A stretch of DNA of 64,000 nt. Origin: Ostreococcus lucimarinus (lineage: Eukaryota). Shown here in pieces: positions 32,567 to 46,671 of the stretch. The position numbers and the translations under genes are program-made. The DNA is taken from assembly GCA_000092065.1 (NCBI GenBank), contig CP000583.1; one strand, given 5' to 3'. The notes beneath the pieces are model-generated. The model saw only the letters and a list, made by a program, of their open reading frames with translations. It was not told where the DNA came from and made no database searches. Within the stretch, counting starts at the first letter, position 1. Each line of letters opens with the position of its first letter.

Positions 32567-33280
32567 ATGCCCGCGACCGACCGCGCATCGTTCGAGCGCG
32601 ACGTCGTCGCGCGCGCCGAGCGCTTCGCGCGCGACGCCCTGGCCTCGAACGACGGCTCGCACGATCTCTGGCACGTCGAGCGCGTGCGCGCGAGCGCGGT
32701 GGCGCTCGCGAGGCTCGAGGGCGCGAACGCGTTCGTCTGCGAGCTCGCCGCGCTGCTGCACGACGTCGACGATTGGAAGTACGCGCGCGGCGACGGCGCG
32801 AAGGGCCGGGCGAGGACGTTTCTGGAAGACTCGTGCGCGGACGTCGACGCGGCGACGCGCGAGACGGTGCTGGACGTGTGCGCGCGGATCGGGTTCAAGA
32901 GCGAACTCGAAAAAGCTGAAAAATCGCGCGCCGACGACGACGAGGAGAGCGTCGAGTTTCGATGCGTGCAAGACGCCGATCGATTGGACGCGATCGGCGC
33001 GATCGGCATCGGGCGGACGTTTTGTTTCGGCGGCGCGCGCGGGAATCCGATGCACGTGCCCGGCGTGCCGCCGATGGTGGACGTGACGGCGGCGCGGTAC
33101 GAGGCGGCGCATCGCGACGAGACGCGGCCGAACACGACGATTAATCATTTCCACGAAAAGTTGTTCAGGCTGAGGGGTCTGATGAAGACGGCGTCGGGGC
33201 GCGCGCGCGCCGAGCGCAGGCACGCGACGATGGTCGAGTTCGTCGAGCGGTTTCACCGCGAGTGGGACGGCGACGAGTAG
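32567..33280 (+). CDS. HD-domain metal-dependent phosphohydrolase (YedJ/HD superfamily)
   Basis: HDLWHVERVRASAVALARL...LHDVDDWKY...DADRLDAIGAIGIGRTFCFGG is an HD motif. ATG at 32567. The 5' extension of the ORF is antisense to the DMT gene. Confidence 0.75.
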   Translation: MPATDRASFERDVVARAERFARDALASNDGSHDLWHVERVRASAVALARLEGANAFVCELAALLHDVDDWKYARGDGAKGRARTFLEDSCADVDAATRETVLDVCARIGFKSELEKAEKSRADDDEESVEFRCVQDADRLDAIGAIGIGRTFCFGGARGNPMHVPGVPPMVDVTAARYEAAHRDETRPNTTINHFHEKLFRLRGLMKTASGRARAERRHATMVEFVERFHREWDGDE

Positions 33281-33300
33281 CGGCGGCGCAAAGTTTAGTA

Positions 33301-33325
33301 TTCATTCATTCATTCATTCATTCGT
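33301..33325 (+). repeat. (TTCA)n microsatellite, about 6 units, in the 5' region of the ROK/EF/TRX gene
   Basis: ttcattcattcattcattcattc read directly. Confidence 0.8.
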
Positions 33326-33363
33326 TCCTTCACTCACTCGCGCGCGCGCGCCGACGCCGGGCG

Positions 33364-35007
33364 ATGGCCGCCGCGTCTTCGTCGCTCGCCGCGCGCGCGT
33401 CGCGCGTCGGCGCCGCGGCGTCCGCGCGCGGCGTCGCGCGGCGTCGAGCGACGAAGACGCGTCGCGTCGACGCGGCGACGTCGCGTCGGCGCGGCGGCGG
33501 CGCGCGCCCGCGGGCGCTCGCGAGCGACGCGGACGCGGACGAGATCCTGGGCGTGTACGTCACGGCGTCGGCGGAGGACATACGCGCGGCGCCGGTGAGG
33601 GCGAGCGATGGGACGTTCCTGCGCGCGGGGGCGAGCACGAAGCTCGAGGCGGCGACGGCGAGCGGCGTCGCGGCGGCGGTGAAGCGATTGGTCGAGCAGA
33701 TGGAGTGGACGGGGGCGATCGGGATATCGCTGCCGGGATTAGTGACGCGCGTGGAGGGCGAGAGAGGCGATGGGGCGAGAGGGACGATGGCGAGGACGGA
33801 CATCGAACGCGCGGTGAAGCAGGCGACGGGGTGCGAGACGTCGATTTCGAGCGGCGCCGAGGCGTGCGGGGCGGCGGAACTGGCGTACGGTGCGGGCGTG
33901 GAACTTTCGGGCGGAGAGGCGAAGGGATTAGTGATGTTTTGCATGATCGGTGGGCGGTTCAGCACCAGTCTGTACGATGGAGGGAAGGTTGTGAAGAACT
34001 TTGCGGGCGAAAAGTTGAGCGACGGCGACGGCGACGTCTCGGGAATATCGACTTTACCCGACATCGGTGGCGCAAACGATACCGACGAGGCGTGGACGGC
34101 GTTTGGTGAACGCGTGCGCGAGTACTTGAGCGAGCTCGAGCGAAAGTATAAGCCGGACGTCATCATTCTCGGTGGTAAAGCTGGTCAAAATGCCGACAAA
34201 ATTATGGACAAGTTGACCGCGCTTAACACGAAAGTCGTGCCGGGGACTCTGGGCTTCGTCGCCGGTGTCAAGGGTGCGGCGTTACTAGCGAAACAGCAAA
34301 TTGGCTTGCGCGAAACGCTCGCGCAAGTGCGCGAAGCCGTAGGCGTCCAGACTGGCGTGAGCCCTCAATTCGTCTCGGATGAACAGTTGAAGAGCGTCTT
34401 CGACACATTCGACACGTCGAAGAACGGCGTTTTGGAACTCAATGAACTCGTCGACGCGACGCTCGCGCTCAACGTAAAAGTGAACGACGTGCAGTCGTTG
34501 ATGGATTCCTTGGATTTGGACGCGAACGGTGTCGTCACTTTCGATGAATGGTGCAGGTGGTGGAAGAGCGAAGTGTCGACTGAAGCCGTCACGACTATTG
34601 TCTCGCAAGACGAGTGGCGCCGCGTGCTGAAAATGGAAAGCAAAAGACTCATTTGCCTCGAAGTCGGTTTTACGTTTTGCCGACCGTGCAAAGCGTTCGC
34701 GCGCAAGTATCATCAAATCTCCGAGCAATTCCCGAGCGTCAAGTTCGTCTACATGAATGGGAACGAAAACGGGAGTACTACGATTCTCGCGCGCGACGAT
34801 CTCGGTGTGAAGTCGACGCCTTCCTTTTTCTTGTTTCGAGCGGGCGAAAAGTTGCATTTCCACTCCGGTGCGAAAGAAGAGCGCTTGCGCAACGCGATTA
34901 ATCGCCACATGCGCGACGGAGAATGGCCAGCGTTGGCCGGACCTCGACCGCCTGTGATTTCAGAAGACGAGGAGTTGCGCGCAGCGGCGGCGGCGGAAGC
35001 GACTTGA
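33364..35007 (+). CDS. Fusion protein: ROK/polyphosphate-glucokinase-like sugar-kinase domain + two EF-hands + thioredoxin-like domain, with a transit-peptide-like N-terminus (calredoxin-like C-terminal half)
   Basis: ROK-like glycine loops (AIGISLPGLV, MIGGRFSTSLYDGGKV, VIILGGKAGQNADKI). EF-hands FDTFDTSKNGVLELNELVDATL and LDLDANGVVTFDEWCRWW. TRX-like LICLEVGFTFCRPCKAFARKYHQISEQFPSVKFVYMN. ATG at 33364 follows the HD gene stop. Confidence 0.6.
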   Translation: MAAASSSLAARASRVGAAASARGVARRRATKTRRVDAATSRRRGGGARPRALASDADADEILGVYVTASAEDIRAAPVRASDGTFLRAGASTKLEAATASGVAAAVKRLVEQMEWTGAIGISLPGLVTRVEGERGDGARGTMARTDIERAVKQATGCETSISSGAEACGAAELAYGAGVELSGGEAKGLVMFCMIGGRFSTSLYDGGKVVKNFAGEKLSDGDGDVSGISTLPDIGGANDTDEAWTAFGERVREYLSELERKYKPDVIILGGKAGQNADKIMDKLTALNTKVVPGTLGFVAGVKGAALLAKQQIGLRETLAQVREAVGVQTGVSPQFVSDEQLKSVFDTFDTSKNGVLELNELVDATLALNVKVNDVQSLMDSLDLDANGVVTFDEWCRWWKSEVSTEAVTTIVSQDEWRRVLKMESKRLICLEVGFTFCRPCKAFARKYHQISEQFPSVKFVYMNGNENGSTTILARDDLGVKSTPSFFLFRAGEKLHFHSGAKEERLRNAINRHMRDGEWPALAGPRPPVISEDEELRAAAAAEAT

Positions 35008-35076: not shown

Positions 35077-36643
35077 CTAAGTTGACGTTCCCGCGTCCTT
35101 TTTATAATAAGTCGGCGCGTCGGCTTCGACGGCGGGCTTGCGCGTCGTGCGCTCTTGTAACGCTCGCACCGCGTCTTTGCCCGCTGCCGCCGCCGCTGTC
35201 GCCGCGGCCGTCGCTGCCGCCGTGGCTGCAGATGCGCGTTCTGCCGCCGCCGCCGTCGAAGCTGACGCGCTTTCCCAAATACCGCCCATGCTGAAATTCT
35301 TCAGCGTATCGCTCACTTGATGGCTCACGCTCTTCGCCTCGATCACGATTCGTCGCGGGCTTTGCGCTTCTTCCAAAGGTCCATCTTGCGCGCCACCTTT
35401 AGGCGGTGGCGGGCGCAAGTTCACCCCGTGCATGTCTTCGTCCGCGATCCCGAGCGCCTCTTTTCTCGCCAGTGCGATGCGTTCTGCTTCGCCGACGTCC
35501 ATGGACTTTTCCGACTTGATTTCGTGCGGCTGGTTGAGAATTGCCCCCTTCGTCTGGTCCGCACGCGCGCGAACACCGTAAAGCGTGTACATTTTTCCGC
35601 TCGACGCGTCACGTTCGTCGCCATCAGCGTCCGCGTTGAAGAAATCGTCCAAATCGCTCGTCATCTTTGAGGACATGGTCGACGCGACGTCGAGCGACGA
35701 AGCGATGTCCTTCAGGGACTCATCCTTCGAGAGAACCGAGACGTCCTTACTCTTCTTCTTCGCCAAACTCGCGAGTTTCTTCTTAAGTTCTTGCTCGGCT
35801 GCGATTTCCTCCGTCGTCCTCGAACTCACTTGGTTCGTCATCGCGTCGTTCACCAACATGTCGTGCAACTGAAGCACGTGTGCGACTTCCTCCTGGAACG
35901 CCGCCTCTGCCTCCGCATCCTTCGCCTCTGCATCGTCTCGTCGTTTATACAACGCATCCAACTCGGCTCCGATCTCCGCTTCGAGTAACATCTCCTCCAC
36001 CTCGGACAGCAGCTCCACCGTTCGGTTGAGCGACTCGCTCTGTTCCCAAACCTTCGCCGTCATCCCCGAAACTTCCGCGAGTTCGCGCTCGAGCGCCACC
36101 CACGACTCCTCTTGCTTCCGTATCGTCGATTCCAGCGTCGCGCTGTGCCGCAGCGCGATCCTCGCGCGCGCGTCCACGTGCGCGTGTCGCACGTCGTACG
36201 CCTCCATCGTTTCCTCCACCGCGCGCGCGTACGCCGCCAAACCTCCATCCACTCGCGTATCCTCCTGTCGCGTTCGACCGCAATCATCCTCTTCGTCAGT
36301 CCATCGAATCGGCGTCTCCGCGCGCGTCTCCGGTCGTCCCTCGTCCGCGCGAACACCAAACGCGCGTCGCCGCTCGTCGTCGTCGTCTCTCGTCCCATCG
36401 CTCGCGTCGTTCGCGCACCGTCTCCGCGCGCCTCGCGCGCAGCATCGTCTCCAACACGCCCTCGCGCACGCTCGTCGAGCGTTCGAGCGCGTCCCGCGCG
36501 TCCCGCGCGCCCCGTCCGATCGTCTCCGTCATCGCCTCGACCGCGGACGTCCCGGCGCTGTGCACGCGCGCGACCGTCTCGCTCTTCGCGATCGCGCTCG
36601 ACGCGCGTCCGTACGCGTCGCGCAAGAACTCGTGCGTCGTCAT
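35077..36643 (-). CDS. Hypothetical coiled-coil protein; exons 36643..36419 and 36264..35077 with a 154-nt intron (GTGCGC...GACTGAC...CGACAG)
   Basis: Exon 1 MTTHEFLRDAYGRASSAIAKSETVARVHSAGTSAVEAMTETIGRGARDARDALERSTSVREGVLETMLRARRAET joins in frame to EDTRVDGGLAAYARAVEETMEAYDV... This gives a long helical protein with an acidic middle and an Ala-rich C-terminus. Confidence 0.5.
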
Positions 36644-36708
36644 CGCGCGTCCGCGACGCGTTCGTCGGCGCGCGGCGCTCTGCCGCCGCACTTCGCGACG
36701 CGACGACG

Positions 36709-37527
36709 ATGCTGACGCGACGCGCGACGATTCATCCACCGCGCGTCGCGATCCGGTCGCGACGCGCGACGCGCGCGCGCGATGGACGGCGGCGCCGCGA
36801 CGCGCGCGTCCGCGCGAGCGCGCGGATCACGCTCGTGCGCTGCGACGTCAAGGCGGAGGCGATGGATGATTTTCTGCGATTGACGGAGGAAAACGCGCGC
36901 GCGAGCGTTCGCGAGGCGGGGAACGTGCGCTTCGACGTGCTCCGGGACGAGAAGGATAGAAATTTAGTGACGCTGGTCGAGATATACGCCGACGACGCGT
37001 CGGCGGCGAAGCACAAGGAGACGAAGCATTACGAGACGTGGCGAGACGAAGTCGCGGATATGATGGCGGCGCCGCGGAGCGCGGAGACGTATCTGGCGAT
37101 CGAACCGAACGACGACGCGTGGACGTACGCGAACGCCGTGACGTGGAACGAAGACGATGATCAGAGCGAGATGGTGAACGCGAGTTGCGTGCACGTGCAC
37201 TGCGAATGCGCGGCGGGCGACGAGGCGGCGTTTGCCTCGGCGTGCGCGAAGAACGCGAGCGAATCCGCGTTAGAGGATGGGAATTTGCGCTTTGACGTGT
37301 TCCAGAGCGCCGAGAGCGCGCGAAAGTTTTTATTGGTTGAGGTGTACGACGGCGCGGCGAGCGCGGTGGCGCATAAATCGACGCCGCATTACGAGGCGTG
37401 GCGAGAGGAAGTCGCGAACATGATGGCCCGGCCTCGCCAGGCGCGCGCGTACGACGTCGTGTTTCCGCCCACGAAAATCAGTTGGCGCGGCGACGCGTGC
37501 GGCGACGCGTGCGACACGACGTGGTGA
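36709..37527 (+). CDS. Tandem ABM-domain (antibiotic-biosynthesis-monooxygenase / Dabb-like) protein with a presequence-like N-terminus
   Basis: Two repeats of NVRFDVLRDEKDRNLVTLVEIYADDASAAKHKETKHYETWRDEV / NLRFDVFQSAESARKFLLVEVYDGAASAVAHKSTPHYEAWREEV (ABM fold signature). ATG at 36709. Upstream ORF sequence is Arg/Ser low-complexity. Confidence 0.7.
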   Translation: MLTRRATIHPPRVAIRSRRATRARDGRRRRDARVRASARITLVRCDVKAEAMDDFLRLTEENARASVREAGNVRFDVLRDEKDRNLVTLVEIYADDASAAKHKETKHYETWRDEVADMMAAPRSAETYLAIEPNDDAWTYANAVTWNEDDDQSEMVNASCVHVHCECAAGDEAAFASACAKNASESALEDGNLRFDVFQSAESARKFLLVEVYDGAASAVAHKSTPHYEAWREEVANMMARPRQARAYDVVFPPTKISWRGDACGDACDTTW

Positions 37528-37605: not shown

Positions 37606-38100
37606 ATGCCGACCGCCGCCGACGCCGACGCCGAACCGCGCTTCGACGACGTCACGGGCGAAGCCCTCAACGTCGCCGCGCTCGAACTCCAGCGTCGCGC
37701 GACGCAGAACGACTACGTCGCCGCGCACGCACCGAGCGAAGATTCACCGTTACGTCGCGTCCCCGCCGTCGACGTCGCGCCTGGACGGCACAAGTACGTC
37801 CTCACGCAGCTCGCGATCGGCGACGAAGCCGCGCTCGTCGTTCGCGCGTACGCCGGATGCGCGTACCACGCGAATAATTTTGAGCTGTTGACGCGCGAGT
37901 TGGCGCGACTCGGCGTCGACGCGACCGGCCGCGTCGTCGGCGGCGGTCGATGCGAACGCGACGACGCGGCGAAGACGATCAAGGTGTACGGGTACAGTAA
38001 AACGTTCGGGCGCACGCCGGGGTGTAACGAACGCGCGTGCGCGATGATTCAAGAGGCGTTTACTGGATACCAGGCGACGTGGAGCGACGACGGGTACTGA
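37606..38100 (+). CDS. PHPT1: Phosphohistidine phosphatase (Janus/Ocnus family, PHPT1-like)
   Basis: KYVLTQLAIGD...AYHANNFELLTRELARLG...VVGGGRCERDDAAKTIKVYGYSKTFG matches PHPT1 [44 protein letters not shown]. Confidence 0.7.
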   Translation: MPTAADADAEPRFDDVTGEALNVAALELQRRATQNDYVAAHAPSEDSPLRRVPAVDVAPGRHKYVLTQLAIGDEAALVVRAYAGCAYHANNFELLTRELARLGVDATGRVVGGGRCERDDAAKTIKVYGYSKTFGRTPGCNERACAMIQEAFTGYQATWSDDGY

Positions 38101-38435
38101 GTTCGCGCGACGCGGAAGAGCGCCGACGTTTGATTTCGAGTTGTTCCGACGACGCGATCGTTCGACTGTTAGTTACGCTTTTATAGCCCCATCGATAGCG
38201 ATTTCGCTCGACGTCGCGTCGTCGTCGACGCCGCGCGCGTGCGATTCGATTCGACGCGCGATGGTGCCCGCATTGGCATCGCGCGCCGAAGCGCGGCACA
38301 CACCGACGCGCGCGATGCCCGCTCGCGCGCGCCGCTCGATCGAAACCTCTCGCGCGCGCGAACTCCTCCTCGCGATCGACGAATCGTTCGCGAGCCCCGA
38401 GGCCTTCGCGACCGCGCGCTTCGATCCTCGCGAAG

Positions 38436-40229
38436 ATGCTGAATGGTAAAGGGCGTTCGCCGCGCGCGCGCGCGGCGCGAGCATTGACGACGTCGTCGCA
38501 CGCGCGCAGGCTCCTCGTGAAGCGCGCGTTCAACAGACGCGCGTTGGAGACGCACCCAGACAAAGGAGGCGACGCGGACGCGTTCCAAGCGATGTACGAG
38601 GCGTTTCAAGAGCTCAAACAAGCGTTTCTCGATGGCTTCTCGGAATTCGCGAAGTGCATCGAATCGGCGCCGGCGAAGGCGAAGGCGAAGGCGAAGGCGA
38701 AACGAACGATGGTAGACGCGCCAGAACTCATGGGTAAGCGACGGACGATTCCACCGTACGAGTTCTTTCAAACCGCCGCTGAACGAGACATTCCGTTCTG
38801 GAAAATTGAGTTGGCGGCGTCGGGCAGAGCTCGCTGCACCGGCTCGCGCAAGTCCCTCGGCAGCGTCGGTCGCTGTCGAAACACCAATGAAGGATCGAAG
38901 GTGGATCAGCCGAGAAGCGTGGGTCCCGGTCCCGGTCCCGGTCCCGGGTCATCGAGAGCGCTCGTCGCCGACGTGTTCGGAATCATCAAGAAGAACGCTG
39001 TGCGCGTGGGCTTAATGGATCCAGAATCTGGCGCGTACTGCCGATTCGTTCATTTGCGATGTTGGCGTGTGCCTCAGGCGGTGTGGTACAATCTTCCGCA
39101 GTACCCCGACGATACGACTGAGTATAGCGTCGATGAGTTCAAAAGACGCTTGGTCGATATGGACGGCGTCGTCTTCGTCGGGTTGAACAAACTTTGCGAT
39201 GAAGACATCACGCTCGTCGCCGAACACGCGATGAATCAGGAGGCGTGGGCGGCGTTCAATCAGAAGAAATATGTCGCCGCTCGAGCTGCTGGCCTTCCGT
39301 CATCGCGGGTTCAACTTCTTTCGAAAGACGAAATCAAAGTACTGCAGAAACTAATGTCGAAGGCGACGTCTTTAGTGCAAGAACCAGAGCAAGACGAACC
39401 GCTCGCCGCGGTGACGAAGCAGGAATCAAAACCGGAACCAAAACGAACGGACCACGATGAGTACGACGTCGTGACTGATGACGACGAACACGAAGATGGC
39501 TTGCAAGTGGCGCCGAATGTCGGCACCGCGATCGCCGTGCAGAAACCAAAAGAGGAGAAGCCACCACCGAAGATTTTGATTCCCGTCCCTGGCGAAAACG
39601 GCGCAATCGCCAACTCACTTCTTCGCGACAATTCCAAACCCATGACGTTCGTGCTGACGGGAATTTTTCCGGATCTCGGAGGCGATCGAATCGGTCTGAT
39701 GCAAGGCAAAGACATGGCGGAAAAGCTGATTCAGCGGTTTGGAGGCGTCGTGCGGAGCGCGGTTTCAGGCGCAACTGATGTTTTGCTCGTCGGCGAAGAG
39801 CCAGGCGTTTCGAAACTATCAGCTGCGCGCACGAAAGCGAACTGCAAAGTTCTCAATCTCGAACACATCCTCGACATGATTCACGGGCGCTCCATTGAAG
39901 GGAAACGGTTGCAAATTGAAAGATTCAGCACAGGTTTTCATGGAAATTCGTTAGCGTACGATATGACGCGAGCCGAATTGGAAGAGCTACGGACGGGAGC
40001 CAAAGCGCTTCCTTCGACGATGAAAACAGAGGAGCCACAACTTCTACCATCGTCCAAGTCGACAACGCGTAAGCGCAAAGCTCTTCCTTTGTCCACGAAA
40101 GACGAAGCGCAAAAGAATTTGACGTTACCCGCACCTGATAAGCCGCCGCGAAATAAGAAGCCAAAACGCTCGCCGAAAGCGCCCGTGCGAAGCTCGCGTC
40201 GTCTCGCCGCACTGACGAACGCCGCGTGA
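38436..40229 (+). CDS. Protein combining a J-domain (HPD) segment, a PARP-type zinc finger and a BRCT domain; candidate DNA-damage factor
   Basis: J-domain helix II/III ..RRALETHPDKGGDADAFQAMYEAFQEL. zf-PARP: KIELAASGRARCTGSRKSLGSVGRC...YCRFVHLRCWRV, compared with PARP1 RVEYAKSGRASCKKCSESI...HWYHFSCFWKV. BRCT: MTFVLTGIFPDLGGDRIGLMQGKDMAEKLIQRFGGVVRSAVSGATDVLLVGEEPG. K/P-rich tail. Confidence 0.65.
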   Translation: MLNGKGRSPRARAARALTTSSHARRLLVKRAFNRRALETHPDKGGDADAFQAMYEAFQELKQAFLDGFSEFAKCIESAPAKAKAKAKAKRTMVDAPELMGKRRTIPPYEFFQTAAERDIPFWKIELAASGRARCTGSRKSLGSVGRCRNTNEGSKVDQPRSVGPGPGPGPGSSRALVADVFGIIKKNAVRVGLMDPESGAYCRFVHLRCWRVPQAVWYNLPQYPDDTTEYSVDEFKRRLVDMDGVVFVGLNKLCDEDITLVAEHAMNQEAWAAFNQKKYVAARAAGLPSSRVQLLSKDEIKVLQKLMSKATSLVQEPEQDEPLAAVTKQESKPEPKRTDHDEYDVVTDDDEHEDGLQVAPNVGTAIAVQKPKEEKPPPKILIPVPGENGAIANSLLRDNSKPMTFVLTGIFPDLGGDRIGLMQGKDMAEKLIQRFGGVVRSAVSGATDVLLVGEEPGVSKLSAARTKANCKVLNLEHILDMIHGRSIEGKRLQIERFSTGFHGNSLAYDMTRAELEELRTGAKALPSTMKTEEPQLLPSSKSTTRKRKALPLSTKDEAQKNLTLPAPDKPPRNKKPKRSPKAPVRSSRRLAALTNAA

Positions 40230-44004: not shown

Positions 44005-44412
44005 GTTCGGCGACGCGGTCGCGGTGAGCGGCGCGATCGATCCGACCGCGACGATCGGCGCGCGCGCGGCGCGGGCGAACGCGCGAGACGGGACGGAAGG
44101 GACAAAACTTGAGCTCCCGCGATTGGATGATTTTCGCGACGAAGAGAGCGCGCGGCGGTTCACGCGCGCGAACCGATGGTTGAGCGTGGACTTGCTGGCG
44201 TTTCCGGTGCGTGGGCGCTCGGCGGTGCGACGTCGCGCGCGAACGAAGGCGAAAGAGGTGGACGAAGGAAGGAAGACGACGGATGGATGGATGCAATCGG
44301 CAATCGAGGTTGTTACAGAGCGCGAAGAAGGGGGGGACGAGCGCGAGAACGACGACTGACGAAACGGTGCGCGACGCGATAGGTGGTGCGAATAAATTGG
44401 GTGGTGGCGCTC

Positions 44413-46671
44413 ATGGCGACGACGACGCTGTGGGGATTCACGATCGGCGTGTTGTCTCGTGAAGAGGCGGCGGAGGAATTTTTCGGCAAGGCGACGCTTT
44501 GGATTTCCAACAACTTTACGTGGTTTTACACCTTGACGCAGAACGCGTGGATTTTCGTGGTGATTTTCGTGCTGTTTCGGAAAAGGTACGCAAACATCAA
44601 GCTCGGACAGCCGGATGATAGGCCTGATTATTCCGATCTCGTGTGGTTCACGTTGATTTTCACCACGGGGCTCGGGACGGGGATATTTTACTTTGGAGTG
44701 AGCGAGCCGATGTACTACTATCGTGATGATTCCAAACTTTTAGGAACAGCAACCAACTATATAGCGAAGATCCCGTTCATGAACGATGATCAAAGGGCGA
44801 ACATGGCGATGTTTGTCACTTTTTTGCATTGGGGTTTGCACGGTTGGGCGACGTACATCTTGGTCGCGCTGACGCTCGGCGTCGTGCATTACCGACTGGG
44901 CAGGCCGCTGACGCTTCGCAGTGCGTTTTATCCCATCGTAGGCGATTACGTCAACGGGCTGTTCGGCGACTTGATTGACTCGATGTCCATCGCTTGTACG
45001 ACGTTTGGGTTGTGCACGTCGCTCGGTTTGGGGGCGAGCAGTATCAATACCATCTTGCACCGCATGAGCGCTTCGATTCCTGACGACGACGACAACACGA
45101 AGTCGGCCATCATTTGGGGCATCACCGCGCTCACTACGGGTGCACTCGTAAGCGGGCTCCACCGCGGGGTTATCACTTTCGCCATTGTCGCCTTCTCAAT
45201 TCTACTTGCGCTGATTATGATTTTGTTCATGCTTGACAACACGTGGTACCTTGCAAATTCGTTTACGCAGCAAATCGGAACATACTTGCAGTACGTGATT
45301 CTCGGCGGATTCGACAATGACGCCATAGCGCAGCTGAACATAGAGTTTACGCAGAACGACACGCACTTGTGGGGTGCGCAAGGGATAAAACAATTAGTGG
45401 AAACGGCCTTGAACAAGACGCTTGCCGATCCGACGACGTATTACTCGAGCTCGCCGACTTCGTTCATGGATACGTGGACGGTATTTTACTGGGCTTGGTG
45501 GATCACTTGGGCGCCGTTCGTAGGAATGTTTTACGCTAAAATTTCACGTGGTCGCACCATAAGATCGCTTATTCTGGTCGGTATGTTTGCGCCGATGTTT
45601 TTGGGTTTCTTTGCTATTTCCGTCCTCGGATCGCTTGGTATTCGAATGCAACGCATCGCGGAATTGGCGCTCGGCGCTGCACCAGATTGGCAGAAAGGAG
45701 TTGTGAACTGCGGTGCCCTCGGGTATTTAGAAAACACACCCGTGAGTGCGGACGCAAAAAAGTTGGCCTCGGAGCTCGGAGTCTACGCCTTGGCGTGTCG
45801 AAAATCGACGGATAGAATTTTGGACATTCTTGAGCCTTACAAAAACTTGACGACGCTTTTACAAACCTTAGTTCTTTTGGGTGTGATTTTGTTCTTCGTC
45901 ACCTCTGCGGATGCGGGCGCGTTCGTGGACGACAAAATCGCCGCGAACGGCATGGAAAATCCTCCTGTTCTTCAAAAGGTGTGGTGGAGCATCACGCAAG
46001 GCGCCACCGCGCAGGCGTTGCTAAGCTCCACTAAAAACGGTTTGTCCACGCTTCAATCGGTGAGCATTTGTGCCGCTCTGCCGTACACGTTCGCGCTGAA
46101 TTACATGTGTGTAGCACTCTTTCGCGCTATGGACGAAACGAATGAGGATCCAACATACATGAAAATGCGGAAAGGTTTCAGCACATCCATCGTCGACGTG
46201 TTTGAGAATTTCCACAAGGCTGACGGAACGATGGCGACGAAACAAGCGTCGACAAAGGATCGCTTGCTGTTACTATTGCGCACAATTTTAAATCCGAGAA
46301 GGTCCTTAACGACGGCGGGCTTGGAACTCTTCAAGCCTCTCAGGCTGAGCGTGTTAAGTTTCGGTTACGGGCTGGTGCATCTTTTGTGGATCTTGCTCCT
46401 CGCGTTGTCGCCGTTGGACAAAGGCACGCACACGTTGGCGTGGTTGATGTACTTGATTTTCACATCAATCACGGCGGCCGTGCGTTATAATCTTAGGAAA
46501 AAGTGGTACATCATCGGTAACTTGATGGATGACTTTTTCGTGTGCTTTTTCTTTTATCCATTCGCGTTGGCGCAAATGCAGCTAGAGGTCGAGAGTCACA
46601 CGGGACGCGCCGTCGAGCACGGAAGAGCCAACTTTGTTCCGGCAAACACGATGAAAGCCGCCGACGACTAG
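44413..46671 (+). CDS. BCCT-family transporter (betaine/carnitine/choline type), bacterial-like, with a long C-terminal extension
   Basis: Hallmark BCCT motif WTVFYWAWWITWAPFVGMFYAKISRGRTIRS plus GLHGWATYILVALTLGVVHYRLGRPLTLRSAFYPI. First ATG at 44413 (track start 44383 is GTG). Confidence 0.8.
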   Translation: MATTTLWGFTIGVLSREEAAEEFFGKATLWISNNFTWFYTLTQNAWIFVVIFVLFRKRYANIKLGQPDDRPDYSDLVWFTLIFTTGLGTGIFYFGVSEPMYYYRDDSKLLGTATNYIAKIPFMNDDQRANMAMFVTFLHWGLHGWATYILVALTLGVVHYRLGRPLTLRSAFYPIVGDYVNGLFGDLIDSMSIACTTFGLCTSLGLGASSINTILHRMSASIPDDDDNTKSAIIWGITALTTGALVSGLHRGVITFAIVAFSILLALIMILFMLDNTWYLANSFTQQIGTYLQYVILGGFDNDAIAQLNIEFTQNDTHLWGAQGIKQLVETALNKTLADPTTYYSSSPTSFMDTWTVFYWAWWITWAPFVGMFYAKISRGRTIRSLILVGMFAPMFLGFFAISVLGSLGIRMQRIAELALGAAPDWQKGVVNCGALGYLENTPVSADAKKLASELGVYALACRKSTDRILDILEPYKNLTTLLQTLVLLGVILFFVTSADAGAFVDDKIAANGMENPPVLQKVWWSITQGATAQALLSSTKNGLSTLQSVSICAALPYTFALNYMCVALFRAMDETNEDPTYMKMRKGFSTSIVDVFENFHKADGTMATKQASTKDRLLLLLRTILNPRRSLTTAGLELFKPLRLSVLSFGYGLVHLLWILLLALSPLDKGTHTLAWLMYLIFTSITAAVRYNLRKKWYIIGNLMDDFFVCFFFYPFALAQMQLEVESHTGRAVEHGRANFVPANTMKAADD

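What the first reader, a model, noticed from the sequence alone, without database searches (positions are those of the whole stretch)
38436..40229. Unusual J-domain + PARP-type zinc finger + BRCT architecture
One ORF combines an HPD-containing J-domain segment, a PARP1/DNA-ligase-III-type DNA-nick-sensing zinc finger (SGRARC..., YCRFVHLRCWRV) and a BRCT domain. zf-PARP plus BRCT recalls DNA ligase III or XRCC1-associated factors, but there is no catalytic core and a chaperone-recruiting J domain has been added. I do not recognise this combination as a described family. It could be a damage-site adaptor that recruits Hsp70. The J domain looks N-terminally truncated, so an upstream exon encoding helix I may be missing.
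Basis: partly seen in the sequence, partly recalled or inferred. Interest (0 to 1): 0.65.

Follow-up and report, generated by a model that had tools for sequence, protein, structure and literature searches.

The report
J-domain protein with DNA-break-sensor domains
This Ostreococcus gene really encodes one protein that joins an Hsp70-recruiting J-domain to a PARP-type DNA-nick zinc finger and an RFC1/ligase-type BRCT domain, and it belongs to a widespread, conserved family that has not been studied and probably brings Hsp70 to DNA breaks.

Summary

The true gene is exon 1 (38315..38445), a 64-nt GT-AG intron (38446..38509) and exon 2 (38510..40229), giving 616 aa. A ~94% relative supports this: it lacks the 38436 ATG and has non-3n indels only inside the intron.

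The organism is Ostreococcus lucimarinus or a near-identical strain. The architecture is not a one-off. At least 423 clusters at 50% identity carry it, in green algae, diatoms and ichthyosporeans, all labelled hypothetical or "J domain-containing". I found no paper describing it.

The most likely function is a class-C J-protein that docks on nicks or 5'-phosphate ends and fires Hsp70 there. That function is inferred, not shown.

The parts
38315..38445 (+). Exon 1 (131 nt): start codon plus J-domain helix I (ARELLLAI, 38354..38377), the loop and the start of helix II (EDAEW). An alternative upstream in-frame ATG at 38261 is not conserved.
   Evidence: It is the only GT-AG solution that gives an open frame. 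In a ~94% relative the 38315 ATG is conserved, the 38261 ATG is TCG, and exon 1 differs only by in-frame substitutions. Splicing adds ~5 bits to a J-domain HMM built without the window and extends the match across the junction. Exon 1 aligns with helix I of the homologues.
38446..38509 (+). 64-nt intron, GTAAAG...CGCAG, with a branch-like CATTGAC at 38482 and a (CG)n run at 38461..38479.
   Evidence: In the relative it is 63 nt. The only non-3n indels (-2 and +1) lie inside it, and GT, AG and CATTGAC are conserved. The relative has ACG in place of the ORF's ATG at 38436, and its unspliced reading hits a stop.
38510..38666 (+). J-domain helices II-IV. The HPD tripeptide is at 38553..38561, within the invariant HPDKGG(D).
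   Evidence: profile hits only J-domains, best E 7.8e-8. HPDKGG is 0.98-1.00 conserved in 88 members. AF2 pLDDT is 87-92. The sequence is identical in the ~94% relative.
38672..38701 (+). (GGCGAA)5 microsatellite encoding the (AK)n linker between the J-domain and the zinc finger.
   Evidence: Its length and sequence differ in the relative strain.
38748..39269 (+). PARP-type zinc finger with a lineage-specific insertion. Proposed ligands: C1 at 38835..38837, C2 at 38874..38876 (C-x12-C), His at 39051..39053 and C4 at 39060..39062. Equivalents of PARP1 R18 and R34: 38826..38828 and 39003..39005. The C-terminal helical part (GLNKL...) is included.
38877..39002 (+). Insertion inside the zinc finger (about 33 extra residues compared with the family median). 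It includes the (GGTCCC)n / GPGPGPGPG run at 38922..38948 and is predicted to be a disordered loop.
   Evidence: The C1-to-His distance is 71 residues against a family median of 38. pLDDT is 48-61. Tandem repeat. The insertion explains why Pfam misses the domain.
39270..39572 (+). Linker: short helices followed by an acidic, disordered stretch. No further domain.
   Evidence: pLDDT is 36-49 over most of it. Pfam finds nothing. It is poorly conserved.
39573..39887 (+). BRCT domain of the RFC1/NAD-ligase class, with the conserved pre-BRCT motif P-x-P-G-x-x-G-A (39573..39620), the T-G plus Gly-rich loop VLTGIFPDLGGDRIGLMQGK (39651..39710) and the G-x-S-K lysine (39798..39830).
   Evidence: PDB sequence hits: RFC1 2ebu/2k6g and LigA 1l7b. 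Foldseek top hits: RFC1 BRCT, RFC:PCNA on nicked DNA, LigA. pLDDT is 93-98. T 0.99, G 1.00 and K 0.99 conserved. dN/dS is 0.15.
39915..39998 (+). Family-specific C-terminal extension of the BRCT: I-x-x-F-S-x-G-[YF]-x-G-N-x-L-A followed by two short helices. Function unknown.
   Evidence: I 0.97, S 0.99 and G 0.99 conserved. pLDDT is 93-96. The motif is present in 125 of 168 members.
39999..40229 (+). Disordered basic tail with NLS-like clusters (RKRK at 40068..40079, KKPKR at 40155..40169) and the stop codon (40227..40229).
   Evidence: Read directly from the sequence. pLDDT is 42-54. Homologues also have basic tails. Nuclear targeting is inferred.

Best explanation
The locus is a two-exon nuclear gene of Ostreococcus lucimarinus that encodes a 616-aa class-C (type III) J-domain protein. 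Its client- or site-targeting part is a DNA-break-recognition module.

Proposed mechanism:
(a) The PARP-type zinc finger binds a DNA discontinuity (nick, gap or end) through the conserved 'backbone-grip' arginines, as PARP1 Zn1/Zn2 and the Lig3 zinc finger do.
(b) The RFC1/NAD-ligase-type BRCT, with its conserved T-G...K phosphate pocket, an N-terminal extension and a family-specific Gly-rich loop, binds the 5'-phosphate side of the same break.
(c) The flexibly tethered N-terminal J-domain (invariant HPDKGG) then stimulates ATP hydrolysis by nuclear Hsp70. This clamps Hsp70 onto a protein sitting at the break, so that repair or replication complexes, or trapped or damaged proteins, are remodelled, released or handed over.

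Shown here: the gene model, the identity of the three domains, conservation of their key contact residues, purifying selection, and wide phylogenetic conservation of the whole architecture.

Inferred: zinc binding, DNA-break binding, Hsp70 stimulation, nuclear localisation and the identity of the clients.
For: Gene model.

Organism: the neighbouring gene is 100% identical to XP_001416547.1 of O. lucimarinus CCE9901.

J-domain: the profile hits only J-domains (E 7.8e-8), HPDKGG is invariant, and Pfam DnaJ matches 59 of 88 members.

BRCT: the best sequence and fold matches are RFC1 and LigA, including the RFC1 BRCT-dsDNA model 2k7f and RFC on nicked or 5'-recessed DNA. T-G and K are conserved.

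Single polypeptide: complete MMETSP transcripts carry all the domains. The domain order is conserved in 126 of 168 members.

Family size: 423 clusters at 50% identity with E<=1e-30, found in Chloropicon, Tetraselmis, Cymbomonas, diatoms, Sphaeroforma and Chromosphaera.

Extra DNA-binding domain: SAP occurs in 7 of 88 members.

Constraint: dN/dS is 0.29 overall, 0.11 for the C-terminal half of the zinc finger and 0.15 for the BRCT.

Genomic context: synteny with the orthologue is conserved.

Established knowledge, from memory: J-domains act by stimulating the Hsp70 ATPase through the HPD motif; class-C J-proteins localise Hsp70 through their non-J domains (for example DNAJC9 with histones, PMC11148058); the RFC1 BRCT binds 5'-phosphorylated dsDNA.
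Against: There is no functional data for any family member.

On the window protein alone, all three Pfam matches are below the gathering score or absent.

The zinc knuckle is non-canonical (C-x12-C rather than C-x2-C), and a disordered insertion of about 33 residues interrupts the finger. Zinc and DNA binding in this species are therefore less certain than in the C-x2-C or C-x8-C members.

BRCT domains can bind phosphopeptides or poly(ADP-ribose) instead of DNA.

The neighbouring genes are unrelated housekeeping genes and give no functional clue.
Confidence: 0.6

Rival explanations
1. A replication-coupled role rather than a repair role. The zinc finger and RFC1-type BRCT would recognise the nicks and 5'-phosphate junctions of Okazaki fragments or primer-template ends. 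The J-domain, like that of polyomavirus T antigen, would use Hsc70 to assemble or strip replication factors such as clamp, clamp loader or ligase.
For: The BRCT's closest relatives are RFC1 and the replicative NAD-ligase. The HPDKGG motif and the high ranking of T-antigen J-domains fit this. The DNA structures recognised would be the same as in the best explanation.
Against: Nothing separates this from the repair reading with the present data. No PIP box or other PCNA-binding motif was recognised by eye, and no systematic motif scan was run. The family is missing from the well-studied model organisms, which argues against a core replication role.
Confidence: 0.15
2. A protein or poly(ADP-ribose) reader scaffold. 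The BRCT, and possibly the finger, would bind phosphoproteins or PAR rather than DNA, so that Hsp70 is brought to a modified repair factor and not to the DNA lesion itself.
For: Many BRCTs use the same T/S-G...K pocket for phosphoserine peptides, and some BRCTs bind PAR (established knowledge, from memory). The near-invariant Gly-rich loop FPExGGGxGLxLGK has no counterpart in RFC1 and could define a different ligand.
Against: It is a single BRCT of the RFC1/LigA class, whereas phosphopeptide readers are usually tandem. The zinc finger keeps both of PARP1's DNA backbone-grip arginines at 0.99-1.00. Some members add SAP, a DNA-binding domain.
Confidence: 0.12
3. In Ostreococcus the zinc finger is a degenerate relic. 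The displaced second cysteine and the GP-rich insertion would have abolished zinc and DNA binding, so that only the BRCT and J-domain are functional.
For: C-x12-C instead of C-x2-C. The C1-to-His distance is 71 residues against a median of 38. Pfam fails on this sequence. dN/dS is higher in the insertion (0.51) and in the N-terminal part of the finger (0.23).
Against: C1, C2, His and C4 are all retained, and C2 is conserved in position across three Mamiellales lineages. AF2 models the core confidently around the insertion (pLDDT 85-95) and superposes on PARP1 Zn1 at 1.9 A. The C-terminal half of the finger is the most constrained part of the protein (dN/dS 0.11). Expanded knuckles (C-x8/9-C) are the norm in the family, not the exception.
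Confidence: 0.1
4. Annotation artefact: the ORF fuses or misreads separate genes, or the domain resemblances are chance in GC-rich sequence.
For: In this >60% GC genome long spurious ORFs occur on all frames. Single-sequence Pfam scores are sub-threshold.
Against: Hundreds of homologues share the same collinear architecture, including complete transcripts. There is purifying selection and synteny. Profile and fold matches are specific to the three expected families.
Confidence: 0.02

Closest known systems
PARP1 N-terminal DNA-break sensor (Zn1/Zn2 zf-PARP fingers plus BRCT)
   Same: The zinc-finger fold and signature are the same (E-x-A-K-S-G-R-x-x-C ... R ... H-x2-C-W/F), including the R18 and R34 equivalents. 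A single finger module is followed downstream by one BRCT.
   Different: There is one finger, not two, and no Zn3, WGR or ADP-ribosyl-transferase domain. The knuckle is expanded (C-x8-13-C). The BRCT is closer to RFC1/LigA than to any PARP1 entry. The output module is a J-domain, so the signal would be Hsp70 recruitment rather than PAR synthesis.
DNA ligase III-alpha (N-terminal zf-PARP finger ... C-terminal BRCT)
   Different: There is no DBD, nucleotidyl-transferase or OB core. The Lig3 BRCT is an XRCC1-binding type, and the Lig3/XRCC1 BRCTs score far lower here than RFC1.
RFC1 (p140) N-terminal BRCT region and bacterial NAD+-ligase BRCT
   Same: These are the best sequence and structure matches (2ebu, 2k6g/2k7f, 1l7b, 7u19, 7tfh). 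The T-G and G-x-S-K lysine are shared, as is a conserved segment N-terminal to the BRCT.
   Different: There are no AAA+ clamp-loader or ligase domains. The family has a Gly-rich insertion after T-G and a conserved C-terminal F-S-x-G-Y-x-G-N extension that RFC1 and LigA lack.
Class-C J-domain proteins that take Hsp70 to nucleic-acid or chromatin contexts: DNAJC9 (histones H3-H4; PMC11148058), DNAJC2/ZRF1 (SANT domains), polyomavirus large T antigen (J plus origin-binding domain), bacterial CbpA (curved-DNA-binding J-protein)
   Same: An N-terminal J-domain with HPD is joined to a specialised targeting module. T-antigen and CbpA J-domains are among the profile hits, and T antigen shares the exact HPDKGG motif.
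   Different: To my knowledge, and in the searched literature, none of them uses a PARP-type finger or an RFC1-type BRCT. The target here would be a DNA lesion structure rather than a protein client or a sequence or curvature feature.
Plant ZDP (zf-PARP fingers fused to a DNA 3'-phosphatase). From memory; not tested here.
   Same: It is another case in which PARP-type fingers deliver a non-PARP effector to strand breaks.
   Different: There the effector is an enzyme acting on DNA. Here it is a co-chaperone domain acting on proteins.

Membership tests
J-domain (DnaJ, PF00226) | HPD tripeptide in the loop between helices II and III | tested here: met
   HPD lies at 38553..38561 within HPDKGG, 0.98-1.00 conserved in 86-88 members. 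AF2 places it between helix 2-14 and helix 22-40 of the exon-2 product.
J-domain (DnaJ, PF00226) | Sequence similarity to J-domains above the curated threshold | tested here: inconclusive
   The window protein scores 19.6-20.7 bits, below the gathering score of 27.8. However, the family J-region profile hits only J-domain chains in the PDB (39 hits, best E 7.8e-8). Also, 59 of 88 members match Pfam DnaJ at E<=1e-3, and one of the eight members scanned individually (P0022) exceeds the gathering score at 29.3 bits.
J-domain (DnaJ, PF00226) | Four-helix J fold including helix I | tested here: inconclusive
   Helices II-IV are modelled at pLDDT 87-92. Helix I is encoded by exon 1 and aligns with helix I of the homologues. 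The spliced sequence could not be submitted for modelling, and Foldseek on the exon-2 model did not list J-domains in its top 50.
J-domain (DnaJ, PF00226) | Stimulates Hsp70 ATPase | not testable with these tools
   A biochemical assay is needed.
PARP-type zinc finger (zf-PARP, PF00645) | zf-PARP fold | tested here: met
PARP-type zinc finger (zf-PARP, PF00645) | Sequence similarity to zf-PARP | tested here: met
   Single-sequence Pfam gives no hit. The family profile that includes the window sequence hits only PARP1 and Lig3 fingers (E 2.7e-12). 68 of 88 members match Pfam zf-PARP (best E 4e-12). The window region against the diatom zf-PARP segment gives E 2e-20.
PARP-type zinc finger (zf-PARP, PF00645) | C-x2-C ... 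H-x2-C zinc ligand pattern | tested here: not met
   C1, His and C4 are present and 0.95-1.00 conserved. The second Cys lies 12 residues after the first (C-x12-C), and the C1-to-His distance is 71 residues rather than ~31. The family mode is C-x8-C, and only 19 members have C-x2-C. Four ligands are available, but the spacing is non-canonical, so this is a divergent variant.
PARP-type zinc finger (zf-PARP, PF00645) | DNA backbone-grip arginines (PARP1 R18 and R34) | tested here: met
   They align and are conserved at 0.99 and 1.00. In the window they are SGR (38826..38828) and RVG (39003..39005).
PARP-type zinc finger (zf-PARP, PF00645) | Binds zinc and DNA nicks or ends | not testable with these tools
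   Metal analysis and EMSA are needed.
BRCT, RFC1/NAD-ligase class (PF00533) | BRCT fold closest to RFC1/LigA | tested here: met
   Foldseek: 2ebu E 5.5e-5 (probability 1.0), 7u19, 7u1a, 2k7f, 8dr5, 7tfh and LigA 9a6z_B rank ahead of the XRCC1, Lig3 and Lig4 BRCTs. The profile against the PDB gives RFC1 at 1.4e-9 and LigA at 1.1e-8.
BRCT, RFC1/NAD-ligase class (PF00533) | Phosphate-pocket residues T-G (beta1-alpha1) and K (alpha2) | tested here: met
   VLTG and G-V-S-K align with RFC1 and LigA. T 0.99, G 1.00 and K 0.99 in 88 members.
BRCT, RFC1/NAD-ligase class (PF00533) | Pfam gathering threshold | tested here: inconclusive
   The window protein scores 20.1 bits against 21.3. 87 of 88 members match at E<=1e-3, and the orthologues score 28 bits.
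BRCT, RFC1/NAD-ligase class (PF00533) | Binds 5'-phosphorylated DNA ends | not testable with these tools
   A biochemical assay is needed.
PARP, DNA ligase III or RFC1 enzymes proper | Catalytic core (ART/WGR; nucleotidyl-transferase/OB; AAA+) | tested here: not met
   Pfam finds no such domain at E<=10. The rest of the protein is predicted to be disordered. It is therefore not a member of these enzyme families.

The most novel reading that the evidence does not exclude
This family is a previously unrecognised, ancient eukaryotic class of DNA-lesion-targeted Hsp70 co-chaperone. It would act as a 'nick-sensing J-protein' that reads strand breaks with a PARP-type finger and an RFC1-type BRCT, and responds by firing Hsp70 to remodel or evict proteins at the break instead of synthesising PAR. 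Its presence in green algae, diatoms and ichthyosporeans would imply an origin early in eukaryote evolution, with loss from the lineages of the usual model organisms. That loss would explain why it has escaped study.
Probability: 0.45. Interest if true: 0.75.

Novelty: new variant of a known kind. Interest (0 to 1): 0.6.

Why it matters
J-domain proteins determine where Hsp70 acts. A J-protein whose whole targeting part is a DNA-break sensor would be a direct, hard-wired link between the chaperone system and DNA strand-break processing. In animals that link is only known indirectly.

The family is large, under purifying selection and spread over distant eukaryotic groups, including ecologically dominant marine picoalgae and diatoms, yet every member is labelled 'hypothetical' or 'J domain-containing'. 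It therefore offers a tractable and testable entry point, since Ostreococcus and diatoms are transformable. The question it opens is how trapped or spent proteins are cleared from nicks in lineages with reduced repair toolkits.

There is also a practical lesson. The domain that matters most, zf-PARP, is invisible to routine Pfam annotation in Mamiellales because of an insertion. In addition, prokaryote-style gene callers split or truncate the gene.

Tried and rejected
1. Single-sequence Pfam and PDB searches were too weak to decide: there was no zf-PARP hit. A whole-length family profile also split the finger and gave only E~0.04 to PARP1. This was resolved by trimming to the finger region.

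I used exon-2 and fragment translations instead, so helix I was never modelled.

3. BLASTP of the exon-1 peptide alone against an orthologue, and against the J HMM, was not significant, because helix I is too variable. Support for the exon came from the junction extension and the comparative indel pattern.

4. Four metagenomic contigs at 99% identity were identical across the intron and so uninformative, and the L005 contig starts downstream of it. L010 gave the decisive comparison.

5. An exact look-up of the 597-aa ORF found no encoding contig.

7. A second word-indexed homologue search with the profile added only one named diatom.

8. Six literature queries on the domain combination returned nothing, and a broader seventh query gave only general J-protein papers.

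9. Neighbouring genes were checked for functional linkage, and none was found.

10. I considered and rejected these readings: a gene-fusion artefact, membership of the PARP, Lig3 or RFC1 enzyme families (no catalytic core), and an XRCC1-type BRCT.

11. Model coordinates are not exposed. I therefore could not measure the zinc-site geometry or see what the C-terminal FSxGY segment packs against.
Full report
**1. What is there.** The + strand carries an ATG-to-stop ORF of 597 aa at exactly 38436..40229. The window is GC-rich (~0.53-0.71) and gene-dense. A neighbouring ORF (37606..38100, a phosphohistidine phosphatase of the Janus/Ocnus family) is 100% identical to XP_001416547.1 of Ostreococcus lucimarinus CCE9901. 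The window is therefore from that picoalga or a near-identical strain. The flanking order is tandem-ABM, Ocnus, this gene, PPIL2-like cyclophilin on the minus strand, then LSM. The same order occurs around a 41%-identical orthologue in another Mamiellales-like genome and around close relatives.

**2. Single-sequence searches are weak.** Pfam on the ORF gives only DnaJ (E 4.6e-4, 20.7 bits, gathering score 27.8) and BRCT (E 7.6e-4, 20.1 bits, gathering score 21.3). It gives no zf-PARP even at E<=10. phmmer against PDB sequences gives RFC1 and NAD-ligase BRCTs, followed by weak J-domains.

**3. The family.** A first homologue search found 26 proteins. Some carry precomputed PF00645 (zf-PARP) with BRCT, and others carry PF00226 (DnaJ) with BRCT.
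- An exhaustive HMMER profile search of 1.84 billion cluster representatives found 423 proteins at E<=1e-30. The best 150 (E<=1e-69) mostly span the whole profile.
- In 168 members, HPD occurs in 137, H-x2-C-W in 149 and the C-terminal FS-x-G-[FYW] in 125. HPD lies N-terminal to the finger in 126.
- Pfam run on 88 diverse members calls BRCT in 87, zf-PARP in 68 (best 4e-12), DnaJ in 59 and SAP in 7.
- Named members come from Chloropicon primus, Tetraselmis striata, Cymbomonas tetramitiformis, the diatoms Conticribra weissflogii and Stephanocyclus meneghinianus, and the ichthyosporeans Sphaeroforma arctica and Chromosphaera perkinsii. All are labelled 'hypothetical', 'J domain-containing' or 'BRCT domain-containing'.
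- Several are complete MMETSP transcripts, so in those species the three domains sit on one mRNA.

**4. The zinc finger.**
- The window region (ORF aa 95-290) aligns with the diatom segment that Pfam calls zf-PARP (39.2 bits, gathering score 39.3) at BLASTP E 2e-20, and with P0020 at 4e-23.
- A trimmed 20-sequence profile that includes the window sequence hits only PARP1 and DNA ligase III fingers in the PDB (best E 2.7e-12). The E-x-A-K-S-G-R-x-x-C signature, the two backbone-grip arginines (PARP1 R18 and R34) and H-x2-C all align.
- The finger is divergent. The family's usual knuckle is C-x8/9-C, and C-x2-C occurs in only 19 members. In Ostreococcus it is C-x12-C. A further ~33-residue low-confidence insertion, which includes a (GGTCCC)n-encoded GPGPGPGPG run, stretches the C1-to-His distance to 71 residues against a family median of 38. 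This explains why Pfam misses it.
- C1, His, C4 and both arginines are 0.95-1.00 conserved. The C-terminal half of the finger is the most constrained part of the protein between two strains (dN/dS 0.11).

**5. The BRCT.**
- Both the whole-family profile (RFC1 1.4e-9, LigA 1.1e-8) and the full-length AF2 model (pLDDT 93-98 over the domain) place it in the RFC1/NAD-ligase class.
- Foldseek's best hits are the RFC1 BRCT (2ebu, E 5.5e-5), RFC:PCNA on nicked or gapped DNA (7u19, 7u1a), the RFC1 BRCT-dsDNA model (2k7f), RFC at a 5'-recessed end (7tfh) and LigA. All rank ahead of the XRCC1, Lig3 and Lig4 BRCTs.
- The T-G of beta1-alpha1 and the lysine of G-x-S-K are 0.99-1.00 conserved.
- Three further features are family-specific and unexplained: a near-invariant Gly-rich loop (FPE-x-GGG-x-GL-x-LGK), a pre-BRCT P-x-P-G-x-x-G-A motif, and a confidently modelled C-terminal extension I-x-S-F-S-x-G-Y-x-G-N.

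**6. The J-domain and the gene model.**
- A J-region profile hits 39 PDB chains, all of them J-domains (Sis1, DNAJB1, T antigens, DnaJ, CbpA), with a best E of 7.8e-8. HPDKGG is invariant.
- Homologues have a complete helix I, but the ORF does not. Upstream, in another frame, lies '...ARELLLAIDESF...EDAEW' followed by GTAAAG, and CGCAG precedes 'LLVKRAF'. The only GT-AG pair that restores an open frame is 38446..38509, 64 nt.
- Splicing extends the match to a J HMM built without the window across the junction (EDAEW|LLVKRAF against leeeFkviKkaY) and adds ~5 bits.
- The decisive comparison is with a ~94% relative (L010). There the ORF's ATG at 38436 is ACG, and the first upstream ATG (38261) is TCG, but the ATG at 38315 is conserved. 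Exon 1 differs only by in-frame substitutions. The only non-3n indels (-2 and +1) lie inside the intron, which is 63 nt in that strain, while GT, AG and a branch-like CATTGAC are conserved. The unspliced reading hits a stop, and the spliced reading is open for 632 aa.
- The corrected model is therefore exon 1 at 38315..38445, intron at 38446..38509 and exon 2 at 38510..40229, giving 616 aa.
- No database entry has the joined N-terminus. Prokaryote-style callers report 597-, 586- and 545-aa truncations, plus a separate 62-aa 'hypothetical protein' for exon 1.

**7. The rest of the protein.** Between the domains there are an (AK)n linker encoded by a strain-variable (GGCGAA)5 microsatellite, an acidic disordered linker, and a basic disordered tail with RKRK and KKPKR clusters. 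Pfam finds no catalytic or other domain.

**8. Mechanism.** Three things are shown: three bona fide domains in a fixed order, conserved contact residues, and purifying selection.

From established knowledge of these domains I infer the following. J-domains stimulate the Hsp70 ATPase through HPD. Class-C J-proteins localise Hsp70 through their other domains. PARP-type fingers bind DNA discontinuities. The RFC1 BRCT binds 5'-phosphate dsDNA ends. On that basis, the finger and the BRCT together would dock on a nick, gap or end, and the tethered J-domain would load nuclear Hsp70 onto proteins at that site. I put this at ~0.6.

The rival readings are these: the same recognition used at replication intermediates (0.15); BRCT-mediated reading of phosphoproteins or PAR (0.12); a degenerate finger in Ostreococcus (0.10); and an artefact (0.02).

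**9. Comparison and novelty.** The finger-plus-BRCT pairing resembles the sensor half of PARP1 and the two ends of DNA ligase III. There is no catalytic core, so the protein is not a member of those enzyme families. The BRCT is of the RFC1/LigA type.

As a J-protein it belongs conceptually with DNAJC9 (PMC11148058), DNAJC2/ZRF1, large T antigen and CbpA, which take Hsp70 to chromatin or DNA contexts. None of these uses such targeting domains.

Six literature queries on the combination found nothing. The library excludes most subscription journals, so absence there is not proof.

I rate it a new variant of a known kind: a class-C J-protein with a new, DNA-lesion-type targeting module. It is represented by a large family that is catalogued but uncharacterised. 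Interest 0.6.

Noticed in passing
window 38261..38449 (+): The exon-1 reading frame is catalogued in public metagenome gene sets as an independent 62-aa 'hypothetical protein' (P0289, on >400 contigs). The main ORF appears as 597-, 586- and 545-aa truncations. Prokaryote-style gene calling on picoeukaryote contigs splits this gene.
   Followed up: yes
window 38672..38701 and 38922..38947: Two perfect hexanucleotide microsatellites lie inside the coding sequence. (GGCGAA)5 encodes the (AK)n linker, and (GGTCCC)4.3 encodes GPGPGPGPG within the zinc-finger insertion. The (AK)n tract differs between the window and the ~94% relative (AKAKAKAKAK against GKGKGKAKAKAKAKGK).
   Followed up: partly
P0240 (MDA9098321.1), member of the P0097 cluster: A family member is deposited in NCBI as 'hypothetical protein [bacterium]'. 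This is probably a eukaryotic contig binned into a bacterial MAG.
   Followed up: no
family alignment A6; window 39651..39710 and 39915..39998: Two motifs flank the BRCT core: a near-invariant Gly-rich loop FPE-x-GGG-x-GL-x-LGK after the BRCT T-G, and an invariant C-terminal I-x-S-F-S-x-G-Y-x-G-N segment (pLDDT >93). Neither has a counterpart in RFC1 or LigA, and no explanation is known. The Ostreococcus loop is slightly degenerate (FPDLGGDRIGLMQGK).
   Followed up: partly
homologues P0019/P0055 (diatom), P0216 (Chromosphaera), and 7 of 88 members of A6: The architecture varies. Diatom members carry three BRCT repeats. Seven members add a SAP DNA-binding domain. The 1255-aa Chromosphaera protein has the family region only at residues ~830-1231, with an unexamined N-terminal part.
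   Followed up: no
window 38461..38479: A (CG)10 dinucleotide run lies inside the 64-nt intron. The 2-nt length difference from the relative strain falls in this run.
   Followed up: partly
window 33262..35007 (+), 36112..37527 (+), 44383..46671 (+): Neighbouring ORFs: an EF-hand pair fused to a thioredoxin domain, a protein with two ABM (antibiotic-biosynthesis-monooxygenase-like) domains, and a BCCT betaine/choline transporter. They are ordinary, unrelated genes. The ORFs listed at 36112 and 33262 start at TTG and GTG, so their true starts are probably internal ATGs or lie in upstream exons.
   Followed up: partly
orthologue loci L001-L004 (P0041, 616 aa): The 41%-identical orthologue in another Mamiellales-like genome encodes the complete J-domain in one uninterrupted ORF. 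The 64-nt intron is therefore a lineage-specific gain (or a loss elsewhere) within the Mamiellales.
   Followed up: partly
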